From Mobula hypostoma (taxonomy: Eukaryota), in contig NC_086108.1 of NCBI RefSeq assembly GCF_963921235.1, positions 38,318,001 to 38,382,000 of the forward strand: DNA of 64,000 nt. The letters are read 5' to 3'. Made by a program: the position numbers and the translations under genes. Shown here piece after piece: positions 376 through 62,193 of this stretch. The notes beneath the pieces are model-generated. The model was not told the DNA's origin, did not search any database, and saw only the letters and a list, made by a program, of their open reading frames with translations. Each line of letters starts with the position of its first letter. Position 1 is the first letter of the stretch.

Positions 376-1185
376 CCAACACTCACAACACGCTGGAGGA
401 ACTCAGCAGGTCGGGCAGCATCCGTGGAAACGATCAGTCAACGTTTCGGGCTGGAACCCTTTGTCAGGACTGAAGAGGGAAGGGGCAGAGGCCCCATAAA
501 GAAGGTGGGGGGGAGGGTGGGAAGGAAAAAGCTGGTAGGTTCCAGGTGAACAACCAGTAAGGGGAAAGATAAAGGGGTGGGGGAGGGGAAGCAGGGAGGT
601 GATAGGCAGGAAAGGTGAAGAAGGAATACAGGAAAACACAATGGGTAGTCGAAGGAGGCAGAACCATGAGGGAGGTGATATGTCCATACATGGCCTCCTC
701 TACTGCCATGATGAAGCTAAACTCAGGTCGGAGGAGCAACACCTCATGTACCGTCTAGGTAGTCTCCAGCCCCTTGGTATGAACATTGAATTCTCCAACT
801 TCTGGTAATTCCCTCCCCCTCCCTTCCCCCCTCTCTATTTCACTCTGCCCCCTCCTCCAGCTGTCTATCACCTCCCTCATGTTCCCGCCTCCTTCTACTA
901 CCCATTGTGTTCTCCCCTATTCCTTCTTCACCTTTCCTGCCTATCACCTCCCTGCTTCCCCTCCCCCACCCCTTTATCTTTCCCCTTACTGGTTTTTCAC
1001 CTGGAACCTACCCTCCTCCCACCTTCCTTATAGGGCCTCTGCCCCTTCCCTCTTCAGTCCTGACGAAGAGTTCCAGCCCGAAACGTTGACTGATCGTTTC
1101 CACAGATGCTGCCCGACCTGCTGAGTTCCTCCAGCGTGTTGTGAGTGTTTCTTTGACCCCAGCATCTGCAGAGTATTCTGTGTTT
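376..1185 (+). mobile_element. Penelope-like element 3' fragment (GIY-YIG C-terminus plus pseudo-LTR) with an inverted copy of its 3' end at the 5' side
   Basis: ~678-808 encodes MSIHGLLYCHDEAKLRSEEQHLMYRLGSLQPLGMNIEF, a PLE GIY-YIG C-terminus; ~378-680 is the reverse complement of ~866-1149; flanked by imperfect 15-bp TSD aaagactggaaataa (361-375) / aaagtgtggaaataa (1186-1200). Confidence 0.85.
1055..1092 (+). ncRNA. Minimal type I hammerhead ribozyme motif in the PLE pseudo-LTR; degenerate mirror copy at 435-472 on the minus strand
   Basis: cagtc-CTGACGA-agag-ttccag-ccc-GAAAC-GTT-gactg: stem I cagtc/gactg, core CUGANGA and GAAA, palindromic ACGU stem III; stem II has a mismatch; the mirror copy reads CUGACAA. 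Confidence 0.7.
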
Positions 1186-2599: not shown

Positions 2600-4560
2600 C
2601 GGGAGAAGTAGGACAAGAGCTAATAAGGATGCGGGTGAGGAGGTGTTGATAGGCATAAGGAGTCAGCTGGGGGGAAGAGAAAAGTGGAGGTAGTGACAGA
2701 ATTTGGGAGGTGAGTGGTGGAAACAAAAGGCTGCAGATGATGGAATCTGATAAACGAACCTGAAGAATGGAGCCAAGGGTGAGATAATGGACAAATTGGG
2801 ACAGTGGGGGAGGTGGAGATAGGGAGCCCTCAGGTGTGAGTGTGTGGGTAGGTGGAGTAGGTGAGGCTTGGAAAGGAGGAGGCTGGTAAGAGGACCTGGA
2901 TGGTTTGAAATGAGAGAGAAAGGGACAGAGGGGAAGAGTTTACCTGAAATTGTAGACTTCAACGCATCTGCCTTTGGTTTGTAGACTATGAGGTACTGTT
3001 CCCAGTGGCCACACATTTTAATTCCACATGCCATTCCCATTCTGATGTCTATCCACAACCTCCTCTACTGTCAAGATGAAGCCACACTCAAGTTGGAAGA
3101 ACAACACCTTATATTCCGTTTGGGTAGCCTCCAACCTGATGGCATGAACATTGACTTCTCTAACTTCTGTTAATGCCCCACCTCCCACTCGTACCCCATC
3201 CGTTATTTATTTATATACACACATTCTTTTTCTCTCTCTCCTTTTTCTCCCTCTGTCCCTCTCACTATACCCCTTGCCCATGCTCTGGGTTCCCCCCCAC
3301 TTTCTTTCTCCCTAGGCCTCCCATCCCATGATCCTCTCATATCCCTTTTGCCAATCACCTGTCCAGTTCTTGGCTCCATCCCTCCCCCTCCTGTCTTCTC
3401 CTATCATTTTGGATCCCCCTCTCCCCCTCCCACTTTCAAATCTCTTACTAGCTCTTCTTTCAGTTAGTCCTGACGGAGGGTCTCAGCCCAAAACATCGAC
3501 TGTACCTCTTCCTATAGATGTTGCCTGGCCTGCTGCGTTCACCAGCAACTTTTATGTGTGTTGCTTGAATTTCCAGCATCTGCAGATTTCTTTGTGTTTT
3601 GAGGTACTGTTCCTCTAGTTTTCATCTGGACTCACTCTGTCAGGGGAGAAAGCAGAGGGTGGACAAGTTGATGCGGGAATAGGAAGGGGAATTAAAATGG
3701 CTGGCAATCAGGAGCTCCAGGAACTCTTAAAGGCAGAGCAGAAGCGTGAGGCAAAGTACTGGGATAGAAAGCACCCAGTCTGATTAATGAAGTGGAGGCC
3801 AACTTGTGAGCACCAAATGCAGTGGCCGAGTTTGGAGGAGATGCACATGAATATTTGCCTCACCTTTGAGGATTCTTTAGGACTGAGTGGAGGTGAGCAA
3901 GGAACAAGTGTTTCAAGGGAAAGTGCCTGGGAAGAGGAAGGGATGGGTGGGGAGGAATGAGTGAACCAGGAAGTCATGAAGAGATTGTTTCCCACAGAAT
4001 ACAGAAAGGGGAAGATTTGGCCAGTGGTGGAATCACGTTGTAGCTAAATGAATGATGTGCTGGATATGGAGGCTTGTGAGTTTAACAGTAAGTAGCTAGG
4101 GAACTCTTCCCCTGTTCTGTCTGGGTTGTGGGAATGTGGGGAAGAGAGCAGAAGTACAGAATATGGAGAGGATACAGGTGAGAGCTCCATCAACCACTCT
4201 GGGGATAAAGCTGTGTTTTCTGAAAATTAAGGACATCTCAGATATCTTAGAGTGGAAAACTTCATTTCATGAATAGATACAGTGGAGATGGAGAAACAGA
4301 GAAAGGGAAAGCATCCTTACAGGAGATATAGTGGAGGAGACATAGGGGATGTACCTGGATAGGTGTGCAGGCCAGTAGGAGAGAAAGAGAAATCAAAAAA
4401 GATGTGTCAAAATTAGCCAATGTGAATTTGAAGTCAGGGTAGAAGTTAGTAACGAAATTGATAAAAATTGATGAATTCCATGCGGCTGCAGGAAAAAAGC
4501 ACCAATCAGTTCAGTAATTCAGTAAGTTGTATGGCTTCTGAAGTAGATGAGAGAGATGGT
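2600..4560 (-). mobile_element. Old Penelope-like element remnant, interrupted at 3003-3599
   Basis: Minus-strand QIFMCISSKLGHCIWCSQVGLHFI (3708-3995) resembles the PLE GIY-YIG region; purine-rich pseudo-LTR on the + strand at 2600-2940. Confidence 0.65.
3003..3599 (+). mobile_element. Younger PLE 3' fragment inserted into an older PLE
   Basis: Perfect 14-bp TSD tgaggtactgttcc at 2989-3002 and 3600-3613; encodes LLYCQDEATLKLEEQHLIFRLGSLQPDGMNIDF; degenerate hammerhead at ~3466-3502. Confidence 0.85.
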
Positions 4561-6802: not shown

Positions 6803-7572
6803 TATTCATATAAAATTGCTAACTCGTCAATCAACAGGCCCCACTTTCCACAACCCGAGCCGATTCCAGCTTTAACGGAAACCGTGATACGACACCATGA
6901 CACATGCGCATGACTAGTCTCAGCAGCGCCTCACGATGCTCATAGCAGGGACACCAACCGCAGCAAAAGGCCAGGGCAGCTCGATTTCAAGCAGTCACAT
7001 TCTACTAATCACCATCGGCATGTGCAGGATTGGGACAGATCAAACTGCGACCCATCAATAAGAGATAATTAAATCGTATTGTAATGAAGTACTTCGAAAC
7101 ACCCATCAAACCCTTTGCTGCAGTCAAAGGACAGCGGTGACTATATCACATCCATTTAGGAGAGCGCCAACCGCACCATCAAGAGAAATCAGCATTATGG
7201 AGGCTTTGGTGTTACTGCTTCGTACCTTCTATCCAGCATTAAAGTAAAAAAAATATGGTCAGCCTAATTATGCTGCATGGAAAGACAGAGGGACATTATG
7301 GTCAAGAGATTATGCCAAACGTTGTCGGGAAGCAGCAAGGAGAGGGAGAGAACAAGAATCGGATGAGGCCAGGGCCTCACGACTCCAGAATCAAAGAGTC
7401 AAGACAAAAAAGATTAGAGAAGAAGAATCAGAGGAGGAGAGGCATGCACGTCTCCAAAATGACAACAATAGGCACAGAAGGAGGAGAGAACAGGAACTGG
7501 ATCAGGCCAGGGCCGCAAAACTCCAATATCAGAGAGAAAGAACAAATGGTAGAAGAGATGAAGAGATGAAGG

Positions 7573-8335
7573 ATGAAAGGGCTGCACGTCTCCAGAATGA
7601 CAACAACTGCCAACGAAGTGGCTGTCATTATACCAAACAGCACCGAACCTGAAGCAAGATCACGGCATCCCCTCATCTCAATGAGGGACTTGGATCCGCC
7701 AAGGCTTTGCAATGGAATGCAAATGATGGTGGGAGAACTGCAGAACGATCTCATCGTAGCAAAGATAAACATTGGTGCATTCAAAAATGGCATTGTCATG
7801 ATCCCAAGAATTACTCTCAGTTTATCAAAAGGCAAAGATGTCGGCTGGTGGCGCAGTAACATTAGCGCTGGACTCCGGAATGGAGGTTCCCGGGTTCGAA
7901 TCCAGTCAGGCCGATCGTCAGGTACGTTTTCCATCCGTGCCGGGTTGAATGTTGAGCTCGCAACTCAACCTCATTAAATAAATACAGTACTGCGAAATAT
8001 CTCTGTGAGGAGTGGCACCCCACACAGTCTCTCGTTCTGCGCCTTGTAAGGCATGAAAATGCCCGACGTTGGCCACTCAGGCCTGAGTTGATGTCATCAT
8101 CATCGAAGATGTCCCTCTTCAGTGGAGCCAGTTCCCGATACAGTCATGCTTTGCTATGACTATACATAAGGCACAAACCATGGAGAAGGTGTTGATCTAT
8201 CTGGAGAAACCGCTATTCCAGCATGGTCAGCTGTATCTGGCTTTAAGCCGGGGAAAAAGAAATGAAAACGTTAGAGTATTCTTGAAAGGTGGCAGATCAA
8301 CCAGAAATGTTGTCATCAAACGTGTCCTTTGTTAA
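7573..8335 (+). pseudogene. Helitron RepHel helicase C-terminal remnant, split by a SINE
   Basis: Removing the SINE (7843-8105) and one TSD copy joins ...SKGKDV to PLQWSQFPIQSCFAMTIHKAQTMEKVLIYLEKPLFQHGQLYLALSRG...RNVVIKRVLC* in frame. Confidence 0.85.
7843..8105 (+). mobile_element. tRNA-derived SINE
   Basis: A box tggcgcagtaa; B box GGTTCGAATCC (7893-7903); (cat)n tail; 8-bp TSD aagatgtc at 7835-7842 and 8106-8113. Confidence 0.85.
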
Positions 8336-32024: not shown

Positions 32025-33807
32025 TGTCATACGAGGCTGGCTGGGAACGGACCCAAGTGCAAGACAGAGACACTGAAGTACTAGGGACAGGACTAGGATA
32101 CAGGCTGAGGGCAAGGACGTGGATACGAAAACCGGGAACCCGGAACAGGACTGGACAAGAGAGCTAGGAGCCCGGGTTTGGACTCCGAGCCAGAGACTGG
32201 ACAAGGATCCAGTACCTGGGTCTTGCCTCTGGCTCGGACCCCAGAACTAGGCAAGGATGAGGCTTGGCAGGCAGGCAGGATGAGGCTGGAATCTTCTGGC
32301 TTGAGGCTAGAGGCGAGGCTTGGCAGGAGGCTGGAGTCTTCAGGCTTGAGGCTAGAAGCGAGGCTTGGCAGGAGGCTGGAGTCTTCAGGCTTGAGCCCGG
32401 GCTTGGACTCCGAGCCAGACACTGGACAAGGACCCAGTACCTGGGTCTTTCCTCTGGCTCAGACCCCAGAACTAGGCAAGGACGAGGCTTGGCAGGCAGG
32501 CAGGACGAGGCTGGAGTCTTCTGGCTTGAGGCTAGAGGCGAGGCTTGGCAGGAGGCAGGAGGCTGGAGTCTTCAGGCTTGAGCCCGGGCTTGGACTCCAA
32601 GCCAGAGACTGGACAAGGACCCAGTACCTGGGTCTTTCCTCTGGTTCGGACCCCAGAACTAGGCAAGGACAAGGCTTGGCAGGCAGGCAGGACGAGGCTA
32701 GAGTCTTCAGGCTTGAGGCTAGAGGCGAGGCTTGGCAGGAGGCAGGAGACTTGAGGCGAGGCTTGGCAGGAGGCAGGAGACTTGAGGCAAGGCTTGGCAG
32801 AAGGCTGGAGTCTTCAGGCTTGTGGCTAGGCAGGACGCTGGAGTCTTCAGGCTTGAGGCTAGGCAGGACGCTGGAGTCTTCAGGCTTGAGGCTAGGCAGG
32901 ACACTGGAGTCTTCAGGCTTGAGGCTAGGGCAGGAGGCTGGAGTCTTCAGGCTTGAGGCTAGGCAGGAGGCTGGAGTCTTCAGGCTTGAGGCTAGGCAGG
33001 AGGCTGGAGTCTTCAGGCTTGAGGCTAGGCAGGAGGCTGGAGTCTTCAGGCTTGAGGTTAGGCAGGAGGCTGGAGTCTTCAGGCTTGAGGCTAGGCAGGA
33101 GGCTGGAGTCTTCAGGCTTGAGGCTAGAGGCTAGAGACTTGAGGCGAGGCTTGGCAGGAGGCAGGAGGTGGAGTCTTCAGGCTAGAGGCTAGAGACTTGG
33201 CTTGGCAGGAGGAAGGAGACTTGAGGCTGGAGGCTCCTCCTGGGCAGGGCGCGGATCACCACCCAACGGAGGCAAGGGACAGGAAGGGACAGAAGGGACA
33301 GAACCAACCGTAGGTAACAGCAAGACGGCCTGGCTTACCGGACAGAGGCAAGGGACAGGAAGGGACAGAACCAACCGCAGGTAACGGCAAGACGGTCTGG
33401 CTTACCTGGGCGGAGGCAAGGGACAGGAAGGGAGCTAGGTATAGAATGGCTCCAGGACAAGACTGCAGGCGAGATGAGGCGAGAGTTACCAGCAAGACAA
33501 GGCAAGGCTTCAGGCAATGCAAGGCACAACGAGAACTTCAGGCAAGGCGAAAGTTACCGGCAAGACAAGGCAAGGCTTCAGGCAAGGAAACAGAAGGCAG
33601 ACGAAGGGATACAAGGAGTAAGGACAAGAACAATCCAGCAGACACGTCCTGGTCTCTGGAGGCATTTATGCAGCCAGCCCCAACAAGCATCAGCTGCCTC
33701 AATGAGCTCAACAAGAACAGAAACAGGGTAGATAGGAAAAACTGGAGCAAGGGTCGATGGACCGGACCGTGAACCGGAAAACAGACTTCACGGACTGGAC
33801 CATGACA
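32025..33807 (-). mobile_element. Solo LTR (Gypsy-type) with internal tandem-repeat expansion
   Basis: Termini TGTCAT...ATGACA; 5-bp TSD gacat at 32020-32024 and 33808-33812; removal restores the HERO frame; no retroviral ORF; orientation inferred from tgcacttgggtcc near the minus-strand 3' end. Confidence 0.8.
32165..33230. repeat. Minisatellite with 33-bp and 45-bp units and ~190-225 bp higher-order units
   Basis: Unit aggctggagtcttcaggcttgaggctaggcagg repeated about ten times at ~32800-33125; block gagcccgg.ttggactcc recurs near 32168, 32393 and 32580. Confidence 0.9.
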
Positions 33808-35041
33808 GACATGGCTGTACCAACATGGTCTTCTATCAAGGCTGCTCTGGTTTTTCACAGGGTACGAGTTCCCCATGACCATTGTATTAGCCACTGAGAG
33901 GAAAGTTAAAAAGCACATGCGGAGATGGTTGGGGATTCCCCCAAATTTTTCTTCAGTGGGGATCAGATCAGGCCAGCTACAGCTCACATTGTCATCAGCA
34001 GTGGAGGAGTTCAAGGTGGTAAAGTGTAGACTTATGTTAACACTGAGTGGCTCTGAAGACAAGCTAATAAATCAAGCAGGAGTCATAACAAGATTGGGCC
34101 AAAAGTGGTCTGACAACTCAGCCACAGACCAGGCAGTGAGCTCCCTGCAATTGAGAGAGATCATCGACAACGCGTGCTGGGATGGCAAGGCCTCAGCTCT
34201 GCATACTTCCAACAATGGGGGGCGGGGGGCGTGTATGTGCAAGGGATAGGCGTGACATGGTGAAGACAGGTATGAACCACGAGGGCAAAAGGCAGTTATC
34301 GAAGGCAGTGGAGATGGGGTTACATGGTGCCTGGATGAAATGGGATTTTCCCAAGCACAAGATCACTTGGACAGAGCTTTGGAAACTACAGCCCTTCCGC
34401 ATTTCTTTCCTCCTGCAGTCCGTGTACGACACTCTCCCTGCACCATCACAGCTGCACACGTGGGGCCTGAGAGAGAACCCTAACTGCAAGCTTTGTGGTC
34501 AGCAGTGTTCACTGGCACATGTGCTGTCAGGATACAAAACAGCTTTAACACAAGGACAGTATAGGTGGCACCACGACAAGGTCCTGCTGTCCCTTACTGA
34601 CACACTGAATTGGGAGAGGTGTAAAAGGAGACCAGCTGGCAGAGAGATAAACAGGGCAGTCATTTTCATCAAGGAGAGGACCACACCAGTCATATCAAAG
34701 AGGCCTAAATTCAATCTGTGGCAAACTGCCAATTCATGGGAGATGAAGCACCTTCAATTACTCCAAAAGACTGAGGTTTGGTAAAATACTGAAAGGCTTT
34801 TATTCGCTGTACAATACGACCTCCACAGTGAGTGTCTGCCCCCAGACTGAGGGGGAGGGGCAAGGGGAACACCTTTATACAGGACTCTGTGGGAGGAGCC
34901 ACAGGGTCAGTCAGCAGAGGTGTGTGTCCAGACAGGTAACCGAGTTACAACCTATATACATGGTTTACCACATTCACCCCTCCTTTTTTTAAAAAGAGTC
35001 CCGCGGGGTGAAGTGACTGACAATATTTACAGGAAGTATAT

Positions 35042-38000
35042 TTACAGGTCAAGTCTATCAGGCGGTCGAGTCCGTCGCTGTGATCTACATAGCACCGGTG
35101 GTGATTGCACCGGCGATGGCGGTTGTGCTGGCTCTGGCCTGACTTCAGGTGCCAGCACGTTAGGCGTCGGTAATCCCTCGTGCGTGTGCGTCGCGCCCGG
35201 TATGGGAGTGTCGTGTGGTGTCTGTATAGGGTTTGGGGTGCACGGTGTCTCGTAGGTACATACATTGGTGGGTACGGGGTCAATAGTCACCACGGAGTGT
35301 TCAGGGTAGGGGCCCGGTGCTCCTGCGGGCGCCAGGTCGCGGATGGAGACCGTGTCCTCCCGCCCATCAGGTAAAACCACATAGGCATACTGGGGGTTCG
35401 CATGAAGTAAGTGAACCCTCTCGACTATCGGGGAGTATTTATTGCTCCTCGCATGTTTCCGGAGCAGCATTGGCCCTGGGGACATCAGCCAAGTTGGTAG
35501 GGTGGTTCCAGTGGTCGATTTTCTGGGAAAAGAAAAGAGCCGCTCATGAGGGGTGGCATTGGTGGCTGTGCATAACAGGGAGCGGATGGAGTGGAGTGCC
35601 TCGAGAAGGACCTCCTGCCAGCGAGAGACTGGCAGTCCCTTTGACCTGAGGGCTAAGAGTGTGACTTTCCACACTGTGCCATTCTCCTTCTCTACCTGTC
35701 CATTCCCCCGGGGATTATAGCTCGTGGTCCTACTGGTCGCAATTCCCCTAGCCAGTAGATATTGGCGCAGCTCGTCACTCATAAACGAGGACCCTCTGTC
35801 ACTGTGGATATAGCATGGGTATCCGAGCAGAGTGAAGAGCTTGCGCAGGGCTTTTATAACTGACGTGGTAGTGGTGTCGGGGCAGGGGATGGCGAAGGGG
35901 AACCGCGAGTACTCGTCAATTACATTAAGAAAGTACACATTACGGTCGGTGGAGGGAAGGGGACCCTTAAAGTCAACACTCAGTCACTCAAAGGGGCGGG
36001 TGGCCTTGATGAGTGGTGCCTTTTCGGGTCGGTAGAAGTGCGGTTTGCACTCTGCTTAGACCTGGCAGTCCCTGGTCATCATCCTGATCTCCTCAAGGGA
36101 GTAAGGCAGGTTCCGGGCTTTCACGAAGTGGAAAAGCCGGGTGACTCCCGGGTGGCAAAGGTCTACATGTAGGGCGCATAGCCGGTCGATCTGTGCGCTG
36201 GCGCATGTTCCCCGGGATAGGGCACCGGAGGGCTCGTTGAGCTTCCCAGGCCTGTACATGATGTCATAGTTGTAGGTGGAGAGTTCGATACTCCACCTCA
36301 GAGTTTTATCATTTTTGATTTTGCTCCGCTGCTGATTATTAAACATGAATGCAACTGAGCGCTGGTCAGTTAGCAGGGTGAACCTTTTGCCGGCAAGATA
36401 GTGCCTCCAGTGCCTTATAGCTTCTACTATGGCCTGGGCCTCTTTCTCTACCGCAGAGTGCCGAATTTCAGGGCCTTGAAGGGTACGGGAGAAGAACACC
36501 ACTGGTCTTCCTGCCTGGTTGAGGGTAGCAGCCAGCGCAAAGTCGAAGGCGTCACTCTCTACTTGGAAGGGAATGGCCTCATCCACCGCATGCATTGCTG
36601 CTTTGGCAATGTCCCCTTTTATGCGGTTGAAGGCCGCGTGGGCCTCGGCAGACAGGGGGAATGTGGTGGACTTGACCAGGGGGCGGGCCTTGTCTGCATA
36701 GTTAGAGACCCATTGGGCGTAATATGAAAAGAAGCCCAGGCACCTTTTGAGGGCTCTGAGGGTATTGGGAAGAGGGAGTTCCAACAAGGGGTGCATACGG
36801 TCGGGGTCAGGGCCAATGACTCCATTCTCCACGACACACCCAAAGATAGCAAGTCGGGTGGTCCCAAATACACACTTATCCTTGTTATAGGTGAGGTTGA
36901 AAGATTTGGCCGCTTGGAGAAATTTTTGGAGGTTGTTGTCGTGATCCTGCTGGTCGTGACCACAGATGGTGATGTTATCCAGATATGGGAACGAGGCCTT
37001 CAGTTGGCACTGGTCCACCATCTGGTCCATTGACCTCTGGAAGACAGATACACCATTCGTGACACCAAAGGGGATGCGCAGGAATTGATAAAGCCTGCCG
37101 TCCACCTCGAAGGCAGTGTAAGGGCGGTCCTCCCGGCGGATGGGGAGCTGATGGTAAGCAGATTTTAGGTCTATGGTCGAGTACACCTTGTACTGTGCTA
37201 TCTGATTGACCATATCCACGATGCGGGGTAGAGGGTACGCGTCAAGCTGCGTGAACCTATTGATGGTCTGGCTATAGTCCACGACCATCCTATTCTTCTC
37301 CCCGTTCCGAACAACCACCACCTGCGCCCTCCAAGGACTTGTGCTTACCTCAATGACCCCCTCCCTGAGCAGCTGTTGCACCTCCGACTTAATGAAAGCT
37401 CTGTCCCCCGCGCTGTACCTCCTGCTTTTAGTTGCCACAGGTTTACAGTCGGGGGTCAGGTTGGCGAACAGCGTTGGGGGAGGGATCCTGAGGGTGGAGA
37501 GGCCGCAAGTGGTGTCGGTAGTGTGGCAGTTGGCATGATGTTGGGTGGGATGCACGGGTCGGTGTGTGTGTGTGGTCAGTAGTGGGGTACGTGACATATC
37601 TCTACAAAACAGGGGATTTATGACAGTAATTGGCAGGAGGGGCCCATCATACTTCATTGTCACACTTTTCAGGTGGCTCTGGAAGTCCAACCCCAACAGC
37701 ACAGGGGCACACAGTTGAGGCAAGACCAGTAACGTAAAGTCCCGATATTCTGTGCCGTGCACCACTAGTGTCGCTACACAACCCCCCCGGATGTATGTTG
37801 TATGCGACCTGGAGGCCATGGTGACCCTCCGACTTACCGGCCGTATCATGAGTCCATAATGCTACACCGTGGCCAGGTGGATGCCTGTGTCAAACAGGCA
37901 GCTTGTCCTGTGCCCCTCCACCAGGATGTCCATTATTGACCTTGCCAGCTGGTGGGGAGCGCTTTGGTCGAGGGTCACGGAAGCCAGGGTGGGGTCGCTG

Positions 38001-38947
38001 TCTTGGTCCGGCGTGGTGGGGTGGCCCGTGAGCACCCGTTGGTCGTAGGCGGTGGGAGGTGGCGCCGACCAAGATGGCCGCCCCCATGTCTCGCACGTGA
38101 TGGTGGCGTGCAGGGAAGATGGCGGCCTCCATGTCTCGCACGTGGTGGCAGTGTGCAGGGAAGATGGCGACCCCCACATCTCGTACGCGGTGCTGCTCGA
38201 TCCCGCTCACGGTTTTGACTTACAGACCTTGGCGAAGTGGCCCTTCTTTCCGCAGCTGGAGCAGGTAGCTTGTCGGGCCGGGCAGCGTTTCCGGGGGTGC
38301 TTCTCCAGTCCGCAGAAGTAGCACTTCGCGGACTCACGACTGGCAGCAGCCGAGGTCGATTCGCCGGCAGGTTGCGGGGTCTGTGGCACCCACGAGGCCA
38401 TCGGGGGATCGTGTGCCTGGAGAGCCTCGGAGTTATGCAGAGTGGCCTCCAACATATCAGCCAGCTCCATCGCCGAATTTAGGGTAAGATCGGCTTTTTC
38501 CAGCAGCCGCTGGCGCACGTACACTGACCTGGTCCCCGTAACGAAGGCGTCCCTCACTAGGAGCTCTGCATGCTGCGTCGCCGTCAGCTCCTGGCAATTG
38601 CAGGCCCGCATAAGTGTCTGTAGGGCCTGGACGAACTCAGCACTCGATTCCCCGGGGCGTTGTTGCCGTGTCGCTAAACGGTGCCAAGCATAGACGCTGT
38701 TTATCGGCCACAGGTATTGTTTTTTGAGTGCGTTCATTGCGCCGTCATAGTTCGGCTGGTCTCTGATCAGTGAATAGACCCGTGGACTGACCCTGGAGAG
38801 TAGAACTCTGCGTTTCGCTACGGGGTCGGTCGCTTTAATCTCCTCTAGATACGCTTCGAAGCAGGCCAGCCAGAGTTCGAAAGCGTTTCCAGCTTCAGGT
38901 GTTTGCGGATTGAGGTCTAATTTTTCTGGTCTCAGGGCCTGTTCCAT
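35042..38947 (-). pseudogene. Single-frame gag-pol polyprotein with three in-frame stops (38207-38209, 37862-37864, 36056-36058)
   Basis: ORFs starting at 38947, 38179, 37849 and 35938 share one frame; zinc knuckles CYFCGLEKHPRKRC and CSSCGKKGHFAKVC; PR LFDTG; RT IPFG and YLDN; RNase H VESDAF; IN HSDRGSSF and GNGQVE. Confidence 0.9.
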
Positions 38948-38957
38948 GTTTTAAAAC

Positions 38958-39684: not shown

Positions 39685-39815
39685 CACAAACAAGAGAATA
39701 TCTGCAGATGCGGGAAACCAAAGTAATACACACAAAATGCTGGAGGAAATCAGCCGGTCAGGCAGCATTGATAGAAAAGAGTAAACAGTTGATGTTTTGG
39801 GCTGAGACCCTTCAT
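39685..39815 (-). mobile_element. Short PLE 3'-end copy ending within a degenerate hammerhead
   Basis: Same tail as the other PLE copies; flanking tgtattttt direct repeat. Confidence 0.7.
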
Positions 39816-45911: not shown

Positions 45912-47365
45912 GAAACAACAGACATACAATGTTGCAGGTCAGGCATCATCTATGAAAATGAATAAACAGTCGACGTTTCAGGCTGAGGCCCTTCTTCAGG
46001 ACTGAAAAAGAAGGGAGAAGATGTCAGAATAAGCAGGTGGGTCGGGGGAGGGAAGTCGGATAGTTAGGAGGTGATAAGTGAAGCCAGGCTGGTAGGAAAG
46101 GTAAAGGACTGGAGCAGAAAGAATCTGACTGGAGAGGAAAGTGGGCCATAGGAGAATGAGAAGGAGAAGAGGACGTAGGAGGATGTAATAGGCAGCTGAG
46201 AAGAGGCAAGAGGCCAGAATAGGAAATTGAAGAAGAATGGAGGGGAGGAGGAAGGAAAATTTGTTTTTACCATAAGGAGAAATCAATATTCATACCATCA
46301 GGTTAGAGGCTACCCAGATGGAATATAAAGTATTGCTCCTCAGTCATGAGGGTGGCCTCAATGTGGCATAAGAGGGGGCCATGAACCAACATATCAGAAC
46401 AGAAATAGGAATTGGAATTAAAATATTTGGCCACCTGGAATTCCTGCTTTTAGCGGATGGATTGGAGGTGCTCATCAAAATGGTCCCCCAATTTATAATG
46501 GATCTCACCAATCGGAAGCACCAAACACAACAGACGGCCTCAGCAGATTCACAGGTGAAGTGTTGTCTCACTAGAAAGAACTGTTTGGGGCCTTGAATGG
46601 ATGCGAGAAAGGAAGTGCCTTCTGAAATGCCCGCTTCACTGCCACTGCTACTGTGCGATTGAGAATCTCCGAAGGGAAGGCCCCAAATCCTCGGCTTTGC
46701 CTATTGCCTGTCGGGGGGGCCGGGGTCGAAGTGCTTGGCAGAGATGGTGCTCAGTGCTCGGTGTCGGAGGGCTGGTCGGAGGCTCGAAGTTTTTGGACGG
46801 ACTCAAGAGTCGGCTGTGGTCGGGTGCTTCCAGGGTGCTGCATCGGCAAGTTTGCGGTGCTGGAGGTTCATGGCAGGGAGAGTTTCTCCGTTCAACCGTC
46901 TGCGTAAAATGATGGGACTTTCGAGAGACTTTGAGAATTTTTTTTAAACTGTGCCCATGGTCTGTTCTTTATCAAATTACAGTATTGCTTTGCACTGTTG
47001 TAACTATATGTTACAACTATGTGGTTTTTGTCATTTTTTTTAGTTTTGGTTTGTCTTGTGTTTTTGTGATATCATACCGGAGGCACATTGTATCATTTCT
47101 TAATGCATGCATTACTAAATGACAATAAAACAGGACTGCGTGTCCTCATAATCTAATCTAATCTAAGCGAATGGGTGCCTGTAGCACTTAGGCCGCTTGC
47201 AGGAACAAGTGCCAGGACAGAAATTAGTGGGGAGGGACAAATCACTCAGGGAGCAATCCCTGTGGAAAGCAGAGGTGGGTGGGAGTGGGAAGAAGGGAAA
47301 GGTACATGTCTCGTGGTAAGATCCCTTTGGAGGTGACGGAAGTTGCAGAGAATGATTTGTTATGA
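45912..47365 (-). mobile_element. PLE fragment with intact-looking hammerhead (45968-46004), interrupted by a retroposon at 46619-47166
   Basis: RQHFTCESAEAVCCVWC and GTCSCKRPKCYRHPF (PLE zinc finger/GIY-YIG region); minus strand cagtc-CTGAAGA-agggcctcagcct-GAAAC-GTC-gactg. Confidence 0.8.
46619..47166 (+). mobile_element. Non-autonomous retroposon with (aatct)n tail, copy 3 (5'-truncated)
   Basis: Homologous to ~20475-20956; ends cataatctaatctaatctaa. Confidence 0.75.
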
Positions 47366-50294: not shown

Positions 50295-50433
50295 AAGGTC
50301 CTGCTGAAGCATTTCGGCCTGAAACATCGACTGTACTCTTTTCCATAGATTCTGCCTGGCTTGCTGAGTTCCTCCAGTACTTTGTGTGTGTTATTCGGAT
50401 TTCCAGCATCTGCAGATTTTGTCTTGTTTGTGA
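50295..50433 (+). mobile_element. Short PLE 3'-end copy starting at the hammerhead motif
   Basis: 13-bp TSD tcagaactctaaa at 50282-50294 and 50434-50446; begins aaggtc-CTGCTGA-agcatttcggcct-GAAAC. Confidence 0.8.
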
Positions 50434-53660: not shown

Positions 53661-54075
53661 TATTGACACCCTGGAACTTGCAATTGCTCACTCCTTCCAC
53701 TGCTGAACTCTCGATGAGAACTGGTATGTGTTCCTCGATGTCCTGTTTTTGAAATTCACAACCAATTCCTTGGTGTTACTGATGTTGAGTGCAAGGTTGT
53801 TATTGCGACACCACTCAACCAGCTAATCTCCTGCTGATGGGTTTCGGCCTGAAACGTCAACTGTACTTTTTTTTTTCCATAGATGCTGCCTGGCCTGCTG
53901 AGTTCCTCCAGCATCCTGTGTGTGTTGCTTGGACTTCCAGCATCTGCAGATTTTCTTTTGTTTGTAATCTATCTCACTCCTGTACTCCTCCTCGTCACAG
54001 TCTGAAATTTTGCCAACAATAATTGTGCCATTGGCAAATTTATAGATGGTGTCTGAGTTGTGCCTAGCCACACAA
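53660..54075 (-). mobile_element. Rex1-like RT fragment interrupted by a short + strand PLE 3'-end copy (~53829-53967)
   Basis: IYKFANGTIIVGKISDCDEEEYRSEI; insert begins tc-CTGCTGA-tgggtttcggcct-GAAAC-GTC. Confidence 0.7.
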
Positions 54076-56019: not shown

Positions 56020-59000
56020 AGCTGAATTGAATTGACTTCATTACTTACATCCTTCACATACATAAGTAAAAATATTTACGTTTCCATCTAAATGAGCAGC
56101 ATGCAATTTATAGCAAGTTGTAATAAATAGTTATGTACATCAAAATCAGAATCATCATCAGCATGCCTTGTGAAATTTGTTAACAGATTATGTGCATAAT
56201 ATAGAAGAAAAAAATAATAAAATTATAATAAATCAATTATAGTATACATATATTGAATAGATTAAAAATTGTGCAAAAACAGAAATAATATATATTAAAA
56301 AAGTGAGGTAGTGTTCACAGGTTCAATGTCCATTTCGGAATCAAATGGCAGACAGGAAGAAGCTGTTCCTGAATCACAAACTGTGCACCTTCAGGCTTCG
56401 GTACCTCCTTCCTGATGGTAATAGTGAGAAAAGGGCATGCCCTGAGTGCTGGAGGCCCTTAATAATGGACGCTGCCTTTCTGAGACATCACTCCTTGAAG
56501 ATGTCCTGGGTACTTTGTAGGCTAGCACCCAAGATGGAGCCGACTAGATTTACAACCCTCTGCAGCTTCTTTCGGTCCTGTCCAGTAGCCCCTCCATACC
56601 AGACAGTGATGCAGCCTGTCAGAATGCTCTCCACAGTACATCAATAGAAGATTTTGAGTGTATTTGTTGACATACCAAATTCCTTCAAACTCCTAATAAA
56701 GTATAGCCGCTGTCTTGCCTTCTTTATATGTTGGGATCAGGTTAGGTCCTCAGAGATCTTGACGCCCAGGAACTTGAAACTGCTCACTCTCTCCACTTCT
56801 GATCCCTCTGTGAGGATTGGTACGTGTTCCTTCGTCTTACCCTTCCTGAAGTCCACAACCAGCTCTTTCGTCTTATTGATGCTGAGTGCCAGGTTGTTGC
56901 TGTGGCACCACTCCACTAGTTGGCATATCTCGCTCCTGTATGCCCTCTCGTCACCACCTGAGATTCTACCAACAATGGTTGTATCATCAGCAAATTTATA
57001 GATGGTAATTGAGCTATGCCTAGCCACACAGTCATGTGTATACAGAGAGTAGAACAGTGGGCTAAGCACACACCCCTGAGATGCGCCTTGATCATCAGCG
57101 AGGAGGATATGTTATCACCAATCTGCACAGATTGTGGTCTTCCGGTTAGGAAGTAGAGGTTCCAATTGCAGAGGGAGGTGCAGAGGGAGGTACAGTGGCC
57201 CAGGCTCTGTAACTTCTCAATCAGAATTGTGGGAATGATGGTGTTAAATGCTGAGCTACAGTTGATGAACAGCATCCTGAGTTGGTGATTGCATTGCCCA
57301 GGTGGTCTAAGGCCTTGTGAAGAGCAATTGAGATTGCATCTGCTGTTGACCTATTGTGGTGATAGGCAAACTACAGTGGGTCCAGTTCCTTACTGAGGCA
57401 GGAGCTCAGTCTAGTCACGACCAACCTTAAAGCATTTCATCACTGTAGACGTGAGTGCTACTGGGTGATAGTCATTAAGGCAGCTCACATTGTTCTTCTT
57501 AGGTACTGGTATAATTGTTGCCTTTTTGAAGCAAGTGGGAACTTCCGCCCTTAGCCGAGAGAGGTTGCAAACTCCTGCTAGACGGTTGACACAAGTTTTC
57601 AGAGCCTTACCAGGTTTTTTTCACCAGCCTTACCGGCTGTGTGGTGAAAAAGCATAACAGTGCCTCTTTCACCTCAGATGGTTGAAGAAGTTTGGTATGG
57701 GTCCCCAAATCCTAAGAACTTTCTACAGGGGCACAATTGAGAGCATCCTTACTGGCTGCATCACTGCCTAGTATGGGAACTGTACCTCTCTTAATTGCAG
57801 GATTCTGCAGAGAGTGGTATGGACAGCCCAGCGCATCTGTAGTTGTGAACTTCCCATGATTCAGGATATTTACAAAGACAGGTGTGAGAAAAAGACCCGA
57901 AGGATCATTGGGGCCCCGAGTCACCCCTTGCAAGGGTTCACCCTCTTTAGAGACAGCCTAACATCTGCCTCTGAGACACAGATCACGGAGTCACCAGGGA
58001 TCTTTACAGCTCTAGTTGTGTTCTCCCTTTCAAAGCAGGCATAGAAGGCATTGAGTTCATCTGGTAGTGAAGCATTGCTGCCATTCATGCTATTGCGTTT
58101 CGATTTGTAGGAAGTAATGTCTTGCAAACCCTGTCAGAGTTGTCGTACATCCGATATTGCCTCTCACCTCATTCGAAATTGTCTCTTCACCCTTGAAATT
58201 GCCCTCCGTTATTTTAATATAACATCAATATAACTTAAAAATACAATACAAATTTTATCAGCGTGAATTAATCAGTCTCATGGCTTGGTAGAAGAAGCTG
58301 TCCTGGAGCCTTTTTGTTCTGGCTTTTATGCTGCGGTACCATTTCCTGGATGGTAGCAGCTGGAACAGTTTGTGGTTGGTGTGACTCAGGTCCCCAATGA
58401 TCCTTTTTACACACCTGTTTTTGTAAATGTCCTGAATAGTGGGAAGTTCACATCTACAGATATGCTGGGATGTCTGCACCACCCTCTGCAGAGTCCTGCA
58501 ACTGAGGGAAGTAAAGTTTGAATGTGAATTGAATTTATTTCTTACATCCGTCACATGCTTGAGAAGTAAAAATCTTTACATCATGTCTCCATCTAAATGC
58601 GCAATCATAGTAATTAATGATAATTTATAATAAATAGAACAGTCAATGTAACATAGAAATACACTCAAATCAATGTAAGTTAATCAGTCTGATGACCTGC
58701 TGGAAGAAGCTGCTCCGAAGCCTGTTGGTCCTGGCTTTTATGCTGCGGTACCGTTTCCCAGACGGTAGCAGCTGAAATAGATTGTGGTTGGGGTGACTCG
58801 GGCCCCAATGATCCTTCGGGCCCTTTTCTCACACCTGTCTTTGTAAATGTCCTGAATCATGGGAAGTTCACAACTACATGCCACTCCATACCACTCTCTG
58901 TAGAATCCTGCAATTAAGGGAGGTACAGTTCCCATACCAGGCAGTGATGCAGCCAGTCAGGATGCTCTCAATTGTGCCCCTATAGAAAGTTCTTAGGATT

Positions 59001-59400: not shown

Positions 59401-59861
59401 AAAAAAGGTTTATGCCTGTGCCAGACTGAGTATATGCTTCTGGAGAGCATGGAGACTGAGAAGTCAAGTAACTGCCTTAAACAAGGGAACTTCAACAAGA
59501 TAAGGGGGCGGTCATTTTAAACTGATGCACAGAATAGGTTTCTTTTCATAAAGTTCAGTGAATATCTGAAATTCTCCATCCAGAGGATGGTGGAAGCTAA
59601 ATTTTTGGAGGTATTTAAAGAAAAGATAGTAATTTATTTTATTATTATTTTTTTAAAATCGAACAACTTGTCAGAACAGCAGATGAAGCTTGGGGAAGGG
59701 TACATTGAATGACAAGGCATATTTGAAGAGCCAATTAGACTTCATCTAATCCTACTTTCCAATTTCTTATGTCTCCCAGTCTGTGGCAAAAGTTACTTCT
59801 CCCTAACGCTGCATGAGGTTATAGTTCTCAGAGCTCATCAAATCAAAATGGTCTCAAGTAA

Positions 59862-60118
59862 CATACATCAAAGTTGCTGGTGAACGCAGCAGGCCAAGCA
59901 GCATCTATAGGAAGAGGTGCAGTCGACGTTTCAGGCCGAGACCCTTCGTCAGGACTAACCGAAGGAAGAGATTCTTCCTTCAGTTAGTCCTGACGAAGGG
60001 TCTCGGCCTGAAACGTCGACTGCACCTCTTCCTATAGATGCTGCTTGGCCTGCTGCGTTCACCAGCAACTTTGATGTATGTTGCTTGAATTTCCAGCATC
60101 TGCAGAATTCCTGTTGTT
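59862..60118. mobile_element. Palindromic PLE-end insertion with a hammerhead ribozyme on each strand
   Basis: 110-bp arms at 59860-59969 and 59973-60082 with one mismatch and a 3-nt loop; TSD tggtctcaagtaa at 59849-59861 and 60119-60131. Confidence 0.9.
59986..60021 (+). ncRNA. Minimal type I hammerhead ribozyme; identical copy on the minus strand at 59921-59956
   Basis: agtc-CTGACGA-agg-gtctcgg-cct-GAAAC-GTC-gact: intact core, GUC cleavage triplet, palindromic ACGU stem III. Confidence 0.85.
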
Positions 60119-62193
60119 TGGTCTCAAGTAAAGTAACTTGCCCATGACTTTTCTCTTATTTACTGTGACCCAACAGATCATGAGTCTGGCTGCTAGAATA
60201 TCCTAACACAAAGGTTACACATAACTTCTCAGTTATCAATTCAAACACAATAATTATTCTTCAAGATTATTATCTGCTTTGCATGACTCCTTTACAAACT
60301 TCTGCAAGTATGAATCAATGATCAGATGAGCTTCAGGAATGTGGCAATTTCTGAGAGAGGATACAACTGTACAACTAAACATAATGCTAAAATATATGCT
60401 TTGCTCAGGATTTATCCATCAATCCTGACAGATGGAGATAAACAATAAGGGTAAAAGAAAAGCATAGAGTTAAATTAAATGTTTTTATTCCTGGGAAGTA
60501 TACCTGACATTAATTGTTCCCATCATGCTCTCCATCCCCTTGCTTTCAGCTTACATTGACCATTGATAATAAAATACATAACAAACTCCTTTACTCCATT
60601 CTGCAAATTATATTTTCTGCATTTTTAGCCTTTTACACAATATTCTTCTGAGTTCATTTTAGCAGTAGACTTAGAACTTGCAGCTCAACTCAAATCAGTT
60701 GGTGTGCTCGGGAGAAGGACCCTAACAACCTTCAAAGTCCTTCAGAGCCAGTCACTTACCAAGCAAAAAGGCATAGTGATTCATTGATCAACTGAGAGCT
60801 GATGTGCTACTGGCAGCTGGAGACTGAAGTCATTCTGGTAGTAAGAGTTGTCAGAGAGGAGACAACTTACAAATTTCACAGCTTGATGATTATTGGGAGT
60901 TCCACCTACACCAAGGTTCATCTGTCACCAGGCTGCCCTTTCAATGATATACTACTTTCACAGTGTAGTCACTGTTATATAGGAACTGCCAAGGCAGCCA
61001 ATTTTCACACCGTAAGATCTCAGCAAGGGAGAGAAATCTCAGTATTTAACTATCACAACACAACCGAGATTTTAGTCTGCTTTCAGTGAAGTTGTTTTAA
61101 GGATAAATATTAGATTAAGCACAAATAAAAACTCTACTGAGAAAATCAGGAGTCTCTTGAATTCTTACGTATCCAACAGAGAAGGAAGGTGGGACGTAGG
61201 CATGGCTTCTCTTCGGAACGTTGTCACTTCCACAATATAGCTCTCAATTCATTCTGTACCACGTTTACATGATTAATTTTTTGAAATGCAAACATCTTTT
61301 AATTCAGAGGTGGAAATGTTATTAACTATGTAATAGATAACACAATTAAAAACTCCGCAACTTTTGCCTATTGATCATCATTTTTTCAAAATGTTTATTT
61401 TTACCAATACATTAAATATTAGTAGACATATGCTGGAAATGTGAATAATCTCCTGAGTTATACTTCAATGTGACACTAACAAATGATTGTGACATTACCA
61501 GGACAATTATCTTAATATTATCTCATCCGTAAAATTCCCAGCTAGCACTTACTTAGTGGTTCAAAAAAGCAATACTATTATTCCCTGTTGAGGGGATGCT
61601 TACTGTTCCCAGTTTCCCTTCATGACATCTGCAACTACTAAGAAGCAGAAATGAGCATCAAAGCTGACTAATGATTAATAATCTCCTCTGCAAATAACAC
61701 AAACCCCACTGGGTTAGTTCTCTGAAAGCCTAATCAGATAATGGAAAAAGTGTACACAATGAGTGTGAATGAAGATTAGTACGTATTTTTAGCCTCTGCA
61801 GAGTAATATATCATAAAATAACAGCTACTGCTATTTTGATTAAATGTTTCTTAGAAATGCTAAGGAAATGTGTTAATAATGCACCTGGGAATGCTGGAGT
61901 TACCCCAAGCATATAAAAAAAATACTTTTAAATGTACAGAGTAGAGAACTTTGTTTGGAGACAAATCATATAATTCGGTTTTTATTACAAGAAAATGCTG
62001 TACTCAACTTTTCATCTCAAATAAATGATATTAATTTCTAAGGCATAGACTAAAATCTTGAAATATGTTGATATTTCCCAGGAAGAAAAACGTGGCAGAA
62101 AAGGAATAGTCAGTGCAAGGAAAGGGATTCAGTGAAAGGTTTTAGGCAAACACAGACAGATTGTGAAAGGCATCATACCATTGTCAGTCTTAC

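What the first reader, a model, noticed from the sequence alone, without database searches (positions are those of the whole stretch)
59849..60131. 257-bp near-perfect palindromic insertion encoding an intact hammerhead on both strands
Seen: 110-bp arms with one mismatch and a 3-nt loop, a 13-bp TSD, and no coding sequence. Each strand carries CUGACGA/GAAA/GUC with a palindromic ACGU stem III. The left junction has microhomology (target tcaagtaa versus element tcaagcaa). Known: PLE pseudo-LTRs carry minimal type I hammerheads thought to cleave as dimers, and inverted pseudo-LTRs occur in PLEs. Inference: this is a recent insertion in which both target ends primed near the RNA 3' end and met just beyond the ribozyme. 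Any read-through transcript would form ~110-bp dsRNA that sequesters the ribozyme and could yield siRNA or A-to-I editing; the DNA could extrude a cruciform.
Basis: partly seen in the sequence, partly recalled or inferred. Interest (0 to 1): 0.7.

Follow-up and report, generated by a model that had tools for sequence, protein, structure and literature searches.

The report
Two-armed Penelope retrotransposon stub
This palindrome is a young insertion of two back-to-back end pieces of a very common Penelope-type jumping gene, one of thousands in this genome, and it was likely built on the spot when both cut ends of the target DNA began copying the same RNA; the layout and its small ribozyme motif are already known.

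Summary
In detail: 110-bp arms with one mismatch, a GAT loop, a 13-bp target-site duplication (TSD) and a minimal hammerhead motif on each strand. A related organism has the empty site, so the insertion is young.

It is not unique. It is a stub of a protein-coding Penelope-like element (RT + GIY-YIG), with at least 4,890 tight head-to-head pairs genome-wide. In an unbiased sample, 35 of 85 insertions are inverted. All 35 pair one tailed with one tail-less arm, against 48% expected by chance. Arms share subfamily variants but rarely private mutations, and 85 of 89 centres differ. This supports priming from both target ends on one RNA.

Arm ends pile up 19-60 nt upstream of the ribozyme cut site and nearly stop beyond -60. 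That fits an RNA start site better than ribozyme cleavage (inferred). Cleavage, dsRNA, siRNA and cruciform were not tested. The layout is published (PMC8557442, PMC3846280), and this scan has already noted the same thing on other DNA of this genome.

The parts
59849..59861 (.). Left TSD copy (13 bp); its 3' end is the inferred primer of the tail-less arm and matches the element 7 of 8
   Evidence: single copy at the empty site of organism B
59862..59970 (-). Tail-less arm: element positions about -46 to +62 relative to the hammerhead cut site
   Evidence: proximal end zone +55..+68 in other copies
59920..59957 (-). Minimal type I hammerhead motif on the minus strand, predicted cut 59925|59924
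59970..59972 (.). Loop/junction GAT (the G is templated, AT is filler or slipped sequence); this exact 21-bp centre occurs at 4 loci with different haplotypes, in both orientations relative to the tail
59973..60080 (+). Tailed arm, palindromic part: element positions -45 to +62
59985..60022 (+). Minimal type I hammerhead motif: stem I 5 bp, core 59990-59996, stem II 3 bp, GAAA, ACGU, predicted cut 60017|60018
60081..60118 (+). [quoted passage not shown]
60119..60131 (.). Right TSD copy (13 bp); its bottom-strand 3' end is the inferred primer of the tailed arm

Best explanation
This is a young, two-armed stub of an endonuclease-bearing Penelope-like retrotransposon, likely made in one step when both ends of a staggered 13-bp cut primed reverse transcription on the same element RNA. 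Shown: the parent encodes RT and GIY-YIG; copies end at two zones about 37 nt apart; inverted insertions carry one end of each kind, 13-15-bp TSDs, matching subfamily variants and locus-specific centres. Inferred: the enzyme nicks both strands, leaving two 3' overhangs; one primes at the distal zone (giving the tail) and the other at the proximal zone, helped by a few bases of chance pairing. Both cDNAs run through the uncut hammerhead towards the RNA's 5' end, which likely lies at an initiator-like motif about 60 nt upstream of the cut site; their 3' ends are trimmed and joined head to head by microhomology or filler. The stub is probably inert: each strand has one minimal hammerhead, which would be buried in the hairpin.
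For: Parent ORF: RVT_1 and GIY-YIG Pfam hits, both below Pfam's cut-off (also L242), and a pLTR-ORF junction in L245. Abundance: 53,009 exact 24-mer matches; 4,890 head-to-head pairs at gap 10-80 against 532 at gap 81-151. Pairing: 35 of 35 in the unbiased sample, with singles 30 proximal to 20 distal, p about 7e-12; 41 of 41 in a second, overlapping sample; 89 of 91 overall, and the 2 exceptions resolve on inspection. Shared template: within-locus arm difference 3.1% against 5.7% between loci; 71 of 73 concordant at a roughly 50:50 site; rare variants in one arm only 74 times, shared 5 times, so later gene conversion is rare. Either arm can reach further upstream (tailed 13, tail-less 18, ties 4 of 35). 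Short or long arms go together (Fisher p=0.001). TSD 13-15 bp in 69 of 91. T at +3 beyond both primer ends (38 of 67 and 42 of 67), and microhomology above shuffled controls at both junctions. 81 of 152 arms end at -19..-60, 0 at -61..-66, 6 at -67..-96, 65 beyond -126. In vitro, the Anolis PLE protein nicks and extends both strands and starts RT at two internal sites flanking the tail, and uses uncut RNA (PMC11167929).
Against: No biochemical or raw-read test was possible. Junction sequences alone cannot separate two-cDNA joining from cDNA fold-back, since both need inverted microhomology. The RNA start site is inferred only from copy ends and an initiator-like motif (consensus recalled); the boundary is not absolute. 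PMC3846280 reads such palindromes as self-priming. PMC11167929 reports priming without homology, whereas modest homology is seen here. A few arm pairs are discordant at diagnostic sites (2 to 7 of 73-76 per site). One pair of loci looks like a whole palindrome re-copied (L247/L248). The unbiased samples come only from the first 3-5 Mb of one contig, and BLAST ends near centres are uncertain by up to about 23 nt.
Confidence: 0.75

Rival explanations
1. Self-priming or fold-back: one cDNA (or an antisense template, as proposed in PMC3846280) snaps back at an inverted microhomology and copies itself, then joins the second target end.
For: It explains identical variants in both arms and the overlaps at centres (54 of 91 junctions overlap by 1 base or more). 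A natural CCTTC...GAAGG inverted repeat sits at -41..-19, inside the hot zone. It is the published reading.
Against: The tail-less arm ends in the same zone as the sole 3' end of single-arm copies, so that end behaves as an independent priming site. The tail-less arm reaches further upstream than the tailed arm in 18 of 35 pairs, which a copy of the tailed cDNA cannot do without extra steps. Both junctions show the same target bias.
Confidence: 0.13
2. Double priming as in the best explanation, but the meeting zone is set by the ribozyme: RT stalls at the folded or protein-bound hammerhead, or the RNA is cut there.
For: Peak termination (-25..-42) overlaps the 5' half of the core and stem I.
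Against: There is no spike at the cut site: 8 of 120 arms end within +8..-5, against 6 and 9 in the neighbouring 17-nt bins. Termination stays high to -60, about 27 nt beyond stem I, then falls (21 of 92 against 4 of 71, p=0.004). Arms pile up at -58..-60 in a non-random pool. Hammerhead mutants did not alter insertion in vitro (PMC11167929).
Confidence: 0.2
3. The palindrome is itself a mobile unit (a hairpin SINE/MITE-like element or retrozyme) copied from a master.
For: L247 and L248, 840 kb apart, share a filler-containing centre and a private variant in one arm but have different TSDs. The window's centre recurs at 3 other loci.
Against: 85 distinct centres among 89 palindromes. The 4 loci with this centre carry different haplotypes and both polarities. 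Arm lengths range from about 30 nt to 2.7 kb. There is no tandem hammerhead pair on one strand, which retrozymes need (bioRxiv 10.64898/2026.07.22.740005).
Confidence: 0.05
4. Assembly artefact (a fold-back chimera).
For: No listed contig spans the centre.
Against: Perfect TSD; a tail on one side only; one arm mismatch; both junctions in organism A contigs; an empty site in organism B exactly at the TSD; thousands of like structures with their own TSDs.
Confidence: 0.02

Closest known systems
EN+ Penelope-like element insertions with an inverted 5'-truncated copy, a one-sided 30-40-bp tail and a TSD (Craig et al. 2021, PMC8557442; Adineta Pen2a, PMC3846280; D. virilis Penelope, PMC2377424)
   Same: Head-to-head inverted end pieces, tail on one end only, TSD, variable truncation, parent with RT and C-terminal GIY-YIG.
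   Different: Here both arms are cut down to about 110-146 nt with no ORF, and such stubs number in the thousands. The strict one-tail/one-tail-less rule and the -60 boundary were not found in the passages read.
Poseidon of Anolis (PAc) in vitro (Frangieh et al. 2024, PMC11167929)
   Same: Two internal RT start sites flanking the tail at the pLTR-ORF junction; both strands nicked and extended; uncut RNA used; predicted dimer.
   Different: Different clade (the parent here has the Neptune/Nematis-type linker). PAc priming was reported without homology, while here modest microhomology is seen. Inverted two-armed products were not discussed in the parts read.
[quoted passage not shown]
   Same: Conserved core, 5-bp helix I, bulged base after position 9, palindromic 15.2-16.2 with no real helix III.
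   Different: Helix II is only 3-4 bp (7-8 bp in the Schistosoma motifs), and 10.1-11.1 is G.U rather than G-C. Activity was not tested here; a single motif was inactive in that paper.
L1 twin priming (recalled, not from a call)
   Same: Second target strand primes on the same RNA and gives an inversion with a TSD.
   Different: In L1 the two cDNAs cover different, adjacent parts of the RNA; here they cover the same part, giving a palindrome, and both start sites are fixed zones.
Non-LTR retrozymes (bioRxiv 10.64898/2026.07.22.740005)
   Same: Non-coding, hammerhead-bearing, derived from PLE pLTRs.
   Different: Retrozymes are direct tandem repeats with two or more hammerheads on one strand; this is an inverted pair with one per strand.

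Membership tests
EN+ Penelope-like element (parent family) | Single ORF with RT followed by C-terminal GIY-YIG endonuclease | tested here: met
   RVT_1 E=1.7e-5 and GIY-YIG E=4e-4 in L112, both under Pfam's cut-off; 679-aa open frame with both in L242
EN+ Penelope-like element (parent family) | CCHH motif in the endonuclease, cysteines between GIY and YIG | tested here: met
   VIYCVRCSRCGLLYIG ... FAEH ... ATHF read by eye in translations; definition in PMC8557442
EN+ Penelope-like element (parent family) | Pseudo-LTR from partial tandem, with optional 30-40-bp tail at the ORF start | tested here: met
   L245 and L219 continue from the tail into the ORF; 3' ends bimodal at about +65 and +101
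EN+ Penelope-like element (parent family) | RT groups with PLE RTs in a tree | not tested
   no tree was built
Neptune clade | CX2-5CxxC linker between RT and EN | tested here: met
   CKRNKCYTC; shared with Nematis per PMC8557442, so it does not separate the two
Neptune clade | Phylogenetic placement | not tested
   no reference sequences were available
Minimal type I hammerhead | Core CUGANGA, GAAA, UH with helices I and II | tested here: met
   both strands; helix I 5 bp, helix II 3 bp
Minimal type I hammerhead | G10.1-C11.1 pair | tested here: not met
   G.U here; the C variant exists in a minority of family copies
Minimal type I hammerhead | Rfam hammerhead model match | tested here: not met
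   none at E<=1; unsurprising for a motif without helix III (inference)
Minimal type I hammerhead | Self-cleavage as dimer or with protein | not testable with these tools
   predicted cost of the hammerhead fold is 6-8 kcal/mol in one arm and about 78 in the hairpin
Non-LTR retrozyme | Direct tandem units with at least two hammerheads on one strand | tested here: not met
   inverted pair, one per strand
MITE-like or master-copied palindrome | Copies share one centre and both termini | tested here: not met
   85 distinct centres in 89 copies; termini differ by the tail

The most novel reading that the evidence does not exclude
Penelope-like elements integrate by obligate paired priming: one enzyme complex cuts both strands 13-14 bp apart and assigns one end to each of two RT start sites on a single RNA. 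The tail, the inverted pseudo-LTR and the TSD are then one event. Transcripts that start about 60 nt upstream of the hammerhead yield thousands of roughly 250-bp perfect hairpins, a few of which are re-copied whole. This would replace the published self-priming reading and can be tested directly in the existing in vitro system.
Probability: 0.55. Interest if true: 0.55.

Novelty: new member of a known kind. Interest (0 to 1): 0.27.

Why it matters
The locus itself is ordinary mobile-element debris. The family statistics matter more: how Penelope-like elements finish integration is still open (PMC11167929 leaves the later steps unvalidated), and the one-tail/one-tail-less rule, shared template and -60 boundary give sharp predictions for that system. 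About 40% of sampled young insertions are inverted, so this family is also a large potential source of long hairpins in host transcripts, which was not tested.

Tried and rejected
Rfam search: no hammerhead hit; the miRNA hits are hairpin look-alikes below gathering score. A DNA search of the genome with the single arm returned nothing because common words are skipped; it is uninformative. An apparent rule that the two arms differ at positions -46 and -36 in the top BLAST hits vanished in the pooled pattern-anchored loci (1 of 41 and 1 of 58 arms of inverted insertions; 0 in single arms), so it was ascertainment. A spike of arm ends at the ribozyme cut site was not seen. Gene conversion as the cause of arm identity was rejected. 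No RNA holder was listed for this stretch; this says nothing on expression. Laying three guessed-RNA runs and one DNA run on a pLTR-ORF junction showed no usable start site, since all were contigs. Host gene context: none of 57 of the 76 frames of 62 aa or more in 44-64 kb that were scanned hit Pfam; the other 19 were left out as likely LINE pieces, and short exons would be missed, so intron status is unknown. The tail-anchored sample (30 loci) gave no arms in the hazard count because its anchor ran past the reference end; the 152 arms come from the other two samples. The script stopped with an error after printing the table used. A look-up of earlier findings by sequence was empty. Literature searches listed no paper whose title, abstract start or read passages state paired priming for PLEs; the library lacks most subscription papers, and no supplements were read.

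Full report
1. Observation. The sequence is as described: a 257-bp insert at 59862-60118 between two copies of a 13-bp TSD, with 110-bp arms (2 bp of which lie in the left TSD), one mismatch and a GAT loop. The fold is far beyond chance (z = -32). Each strand has a minimal type I hammerhead motif, with predicted cuts at 60017|60018 and 59925|59924. Rfam found no hammerhead. With the bulged base that PMC4209133 describes, the 10.1-11.1 pair is G.U rather than G-C.

2. Age and reality. Contigs of a related organism B run from 59848 straight into 60119, an empty site with one TSD copy, in two runs of one sample; its flanks differ from the window at 18 of 1,066 positions. Contigs of organism A span each junction, none listed spans the centre, and they may come from the assembly's own sample. 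The insertion therefore post-dates a recent split.

3. What the arms are. A 24-mer of the arm matches 53,009 times and an 18-mer 96,331 times in the 3.5-Gb genome. [quoted passage not shown] No tree was built. [quoted passage not shown] That the host is a ray-like fish is recalled and echoed in earlier notes, not tested.

4. The palindromic form is routine. Head-to-head pairs of an exact 14-mer number 4,890 at gaps of 10-80 and 532 at gaps of 81-151. I fetched all of the first 100 matches of a 3'-anchored 18-mer (first 3.03 Mb of contig C1). They give 85 insertions, 35 inverted and 50 single. 3' ends fall in two zones, about +55..+75 and +94..+101 or slightly beyond, counted from the cut site. 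Singles use either (30 proximal, 20 distal). All 35 inverted insertions have one of each, against 48% expected (p about 7e-12). A second, overlapping sample gave 41 of 41. Over all 91 inverted events, 89 scored so, and the other two are a duplicated tail arm and a microhomology overrun. TSDs are 13-15 bp in 69 of 91; shuffled flanks never exceeded 8. Both arms cover the whole hammerhead in 15 of the 35, so that feature of this locus is not special.

5. Same template, made at insertion. In 80 of 91 pairs with enough overlap, arms differ by 3.1% within a locus and 5.7% between loci. At diagnostic sites they agree (71 of 73 at +6, 72 of 75 at +27, 69 of 76 at +17, 63 of 69 at +60). Rare variants are in one arm 74 times and in both 5 times, so the agreement is not from later conversion. 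Centres are 85 distinct among 89. The window's centre recurs at three other loci with different haplotypes and both polarities. One contrary case: L247 and L248 share a filler-containing centre and a one-arm variant with different TSDs, which suggests occasional whole re-copying.

6. Two primers rather than fold-back. The tail-less arm ends where single copies end. Either arm can reach further upstream (13, 18 and 4 ties of 35). In 67 of 91 events with clean junctions, both primer ends show excess matches to the element's continuation (first positions 0.70 and 0.58 against about 0.3) and the same T at +3 beyond the TSD edge (38 and 42 of 67). This agrees with PMC11167929 (parts 1-2 of 4 read): both strands are nicked and extended, RT starts at two internal sites that bound the tail, and uncut RNA is the substrate. 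It disagrees with the self-priming reading in PMC3846280 (passages and Discussion read), though junction sequences alone cannot exclude that.

7. Where the arms meet. Of 152 arms that reach -19, 81 end between -19 and -60, none at -61..-66, six at -67..-96, none at -97..-126, and 65 run further at a rate more than ten times lower. Short arms pair with short arms (p=0.001). There is no spike at the cut site. A non-random pool shows a pile-up at -58..-60, at a TCAAATC motif that fits the initiator consensus (recalled). PMC2377424 (passages) places the Penelope promoter, with an Inr, inside the pLTR, and PMC3846280 notes Inr-like motifs there. I infer a class of RNA that starts near -60 and is trimmed during end joining. 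A stall at the ribozyme remains possible. RNA contigs could not decide.

8. Function of this copy. The hammerhead fold costs 6-8 kcal/mol in one arm and about 78 in the full insert. A transcript would hold only one motif, and a single minimal motif was inactive in PMC4209133 (passages). So cleavage here is unlikely. Whether the locus is transcribed is unknown; dsRNA, siRNA, editing and cruciform remain untested.

9. Comparison and verdict. Inverted 5'-truncated copies, a one-sided tail, TSDs and minimal hammerheads are all described for PLEs (PMC8557442 passages; PMC3846280; PMC4209133; PMC6155905 passages). It is not a retrozyme as defined in bioRxiv 10.64898/2026.07.22.740005 (parts 1-2 of 5 read). 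The pairing rule and boundary were not found in eight searches of an incomplete library. Earlier notes of this scan reached like readings on other loci of this genome; I read them after my own counts (note), and they are not independent support. Verdict: a new member of a known kind, interest 0.27.

Noticed in passing
L247 (G000:C1:8875281) and L248 (G000:C1:9715513): Two palindromes 840 kb apart share a filler-containing centre and a private variant in the tail arm only, with different TSDs and flanks and the loop flipped relative to the tail; possibly a whole palindrome re-copied plus loop inversion.
   Followed up: partly
window 1056-1172, 3453-3598, 39689-39813, 45934-46019, 50298-50428, 53829-53962: Six older single-arm copies of related PLE ends (73-90% identical); three of them also begin at or just before the hammerhead core.
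   Followed up: partly
window 35042-38950 (-): LTR-type retroelement with long gag-like, RT/RNase H and integrase frames.
   Followed up: partly
window 33806-34784 (+): Fragments of a non-LTR element with a zf-RVT hit; looks like a restriction-like-endonuclease clade (recalled).
   Followed up: no
window 7248-7977 (+): Frames resembling a Helitron PIF1-like helicase piece (recalled from motif; no Pfam hit).
   Followed up: no
window 58257-58878: Two diverged direct copies spaced about 412-420 bp (81-89% identical), not identified.
   Followed up: no
L237 (G000:C1:46045500-46051500): Three direct tandem hammerhead-bearing units about 440 bp apart, a retrozyme-like arrangement of the same family.
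   Followed up: no
L052, L099, L123, L169 and others: Inverted insertions in which the tailed arm is little more than the tail (starts at +41 to +57).
   Followed up: partly
family-wide, window position 60009: The sampled young copies mostly have T at hammerhead position 11.1 (G.U pair); the canonical C variant is a minority among close copies (samples partly selected on T).
   Followed up: partly
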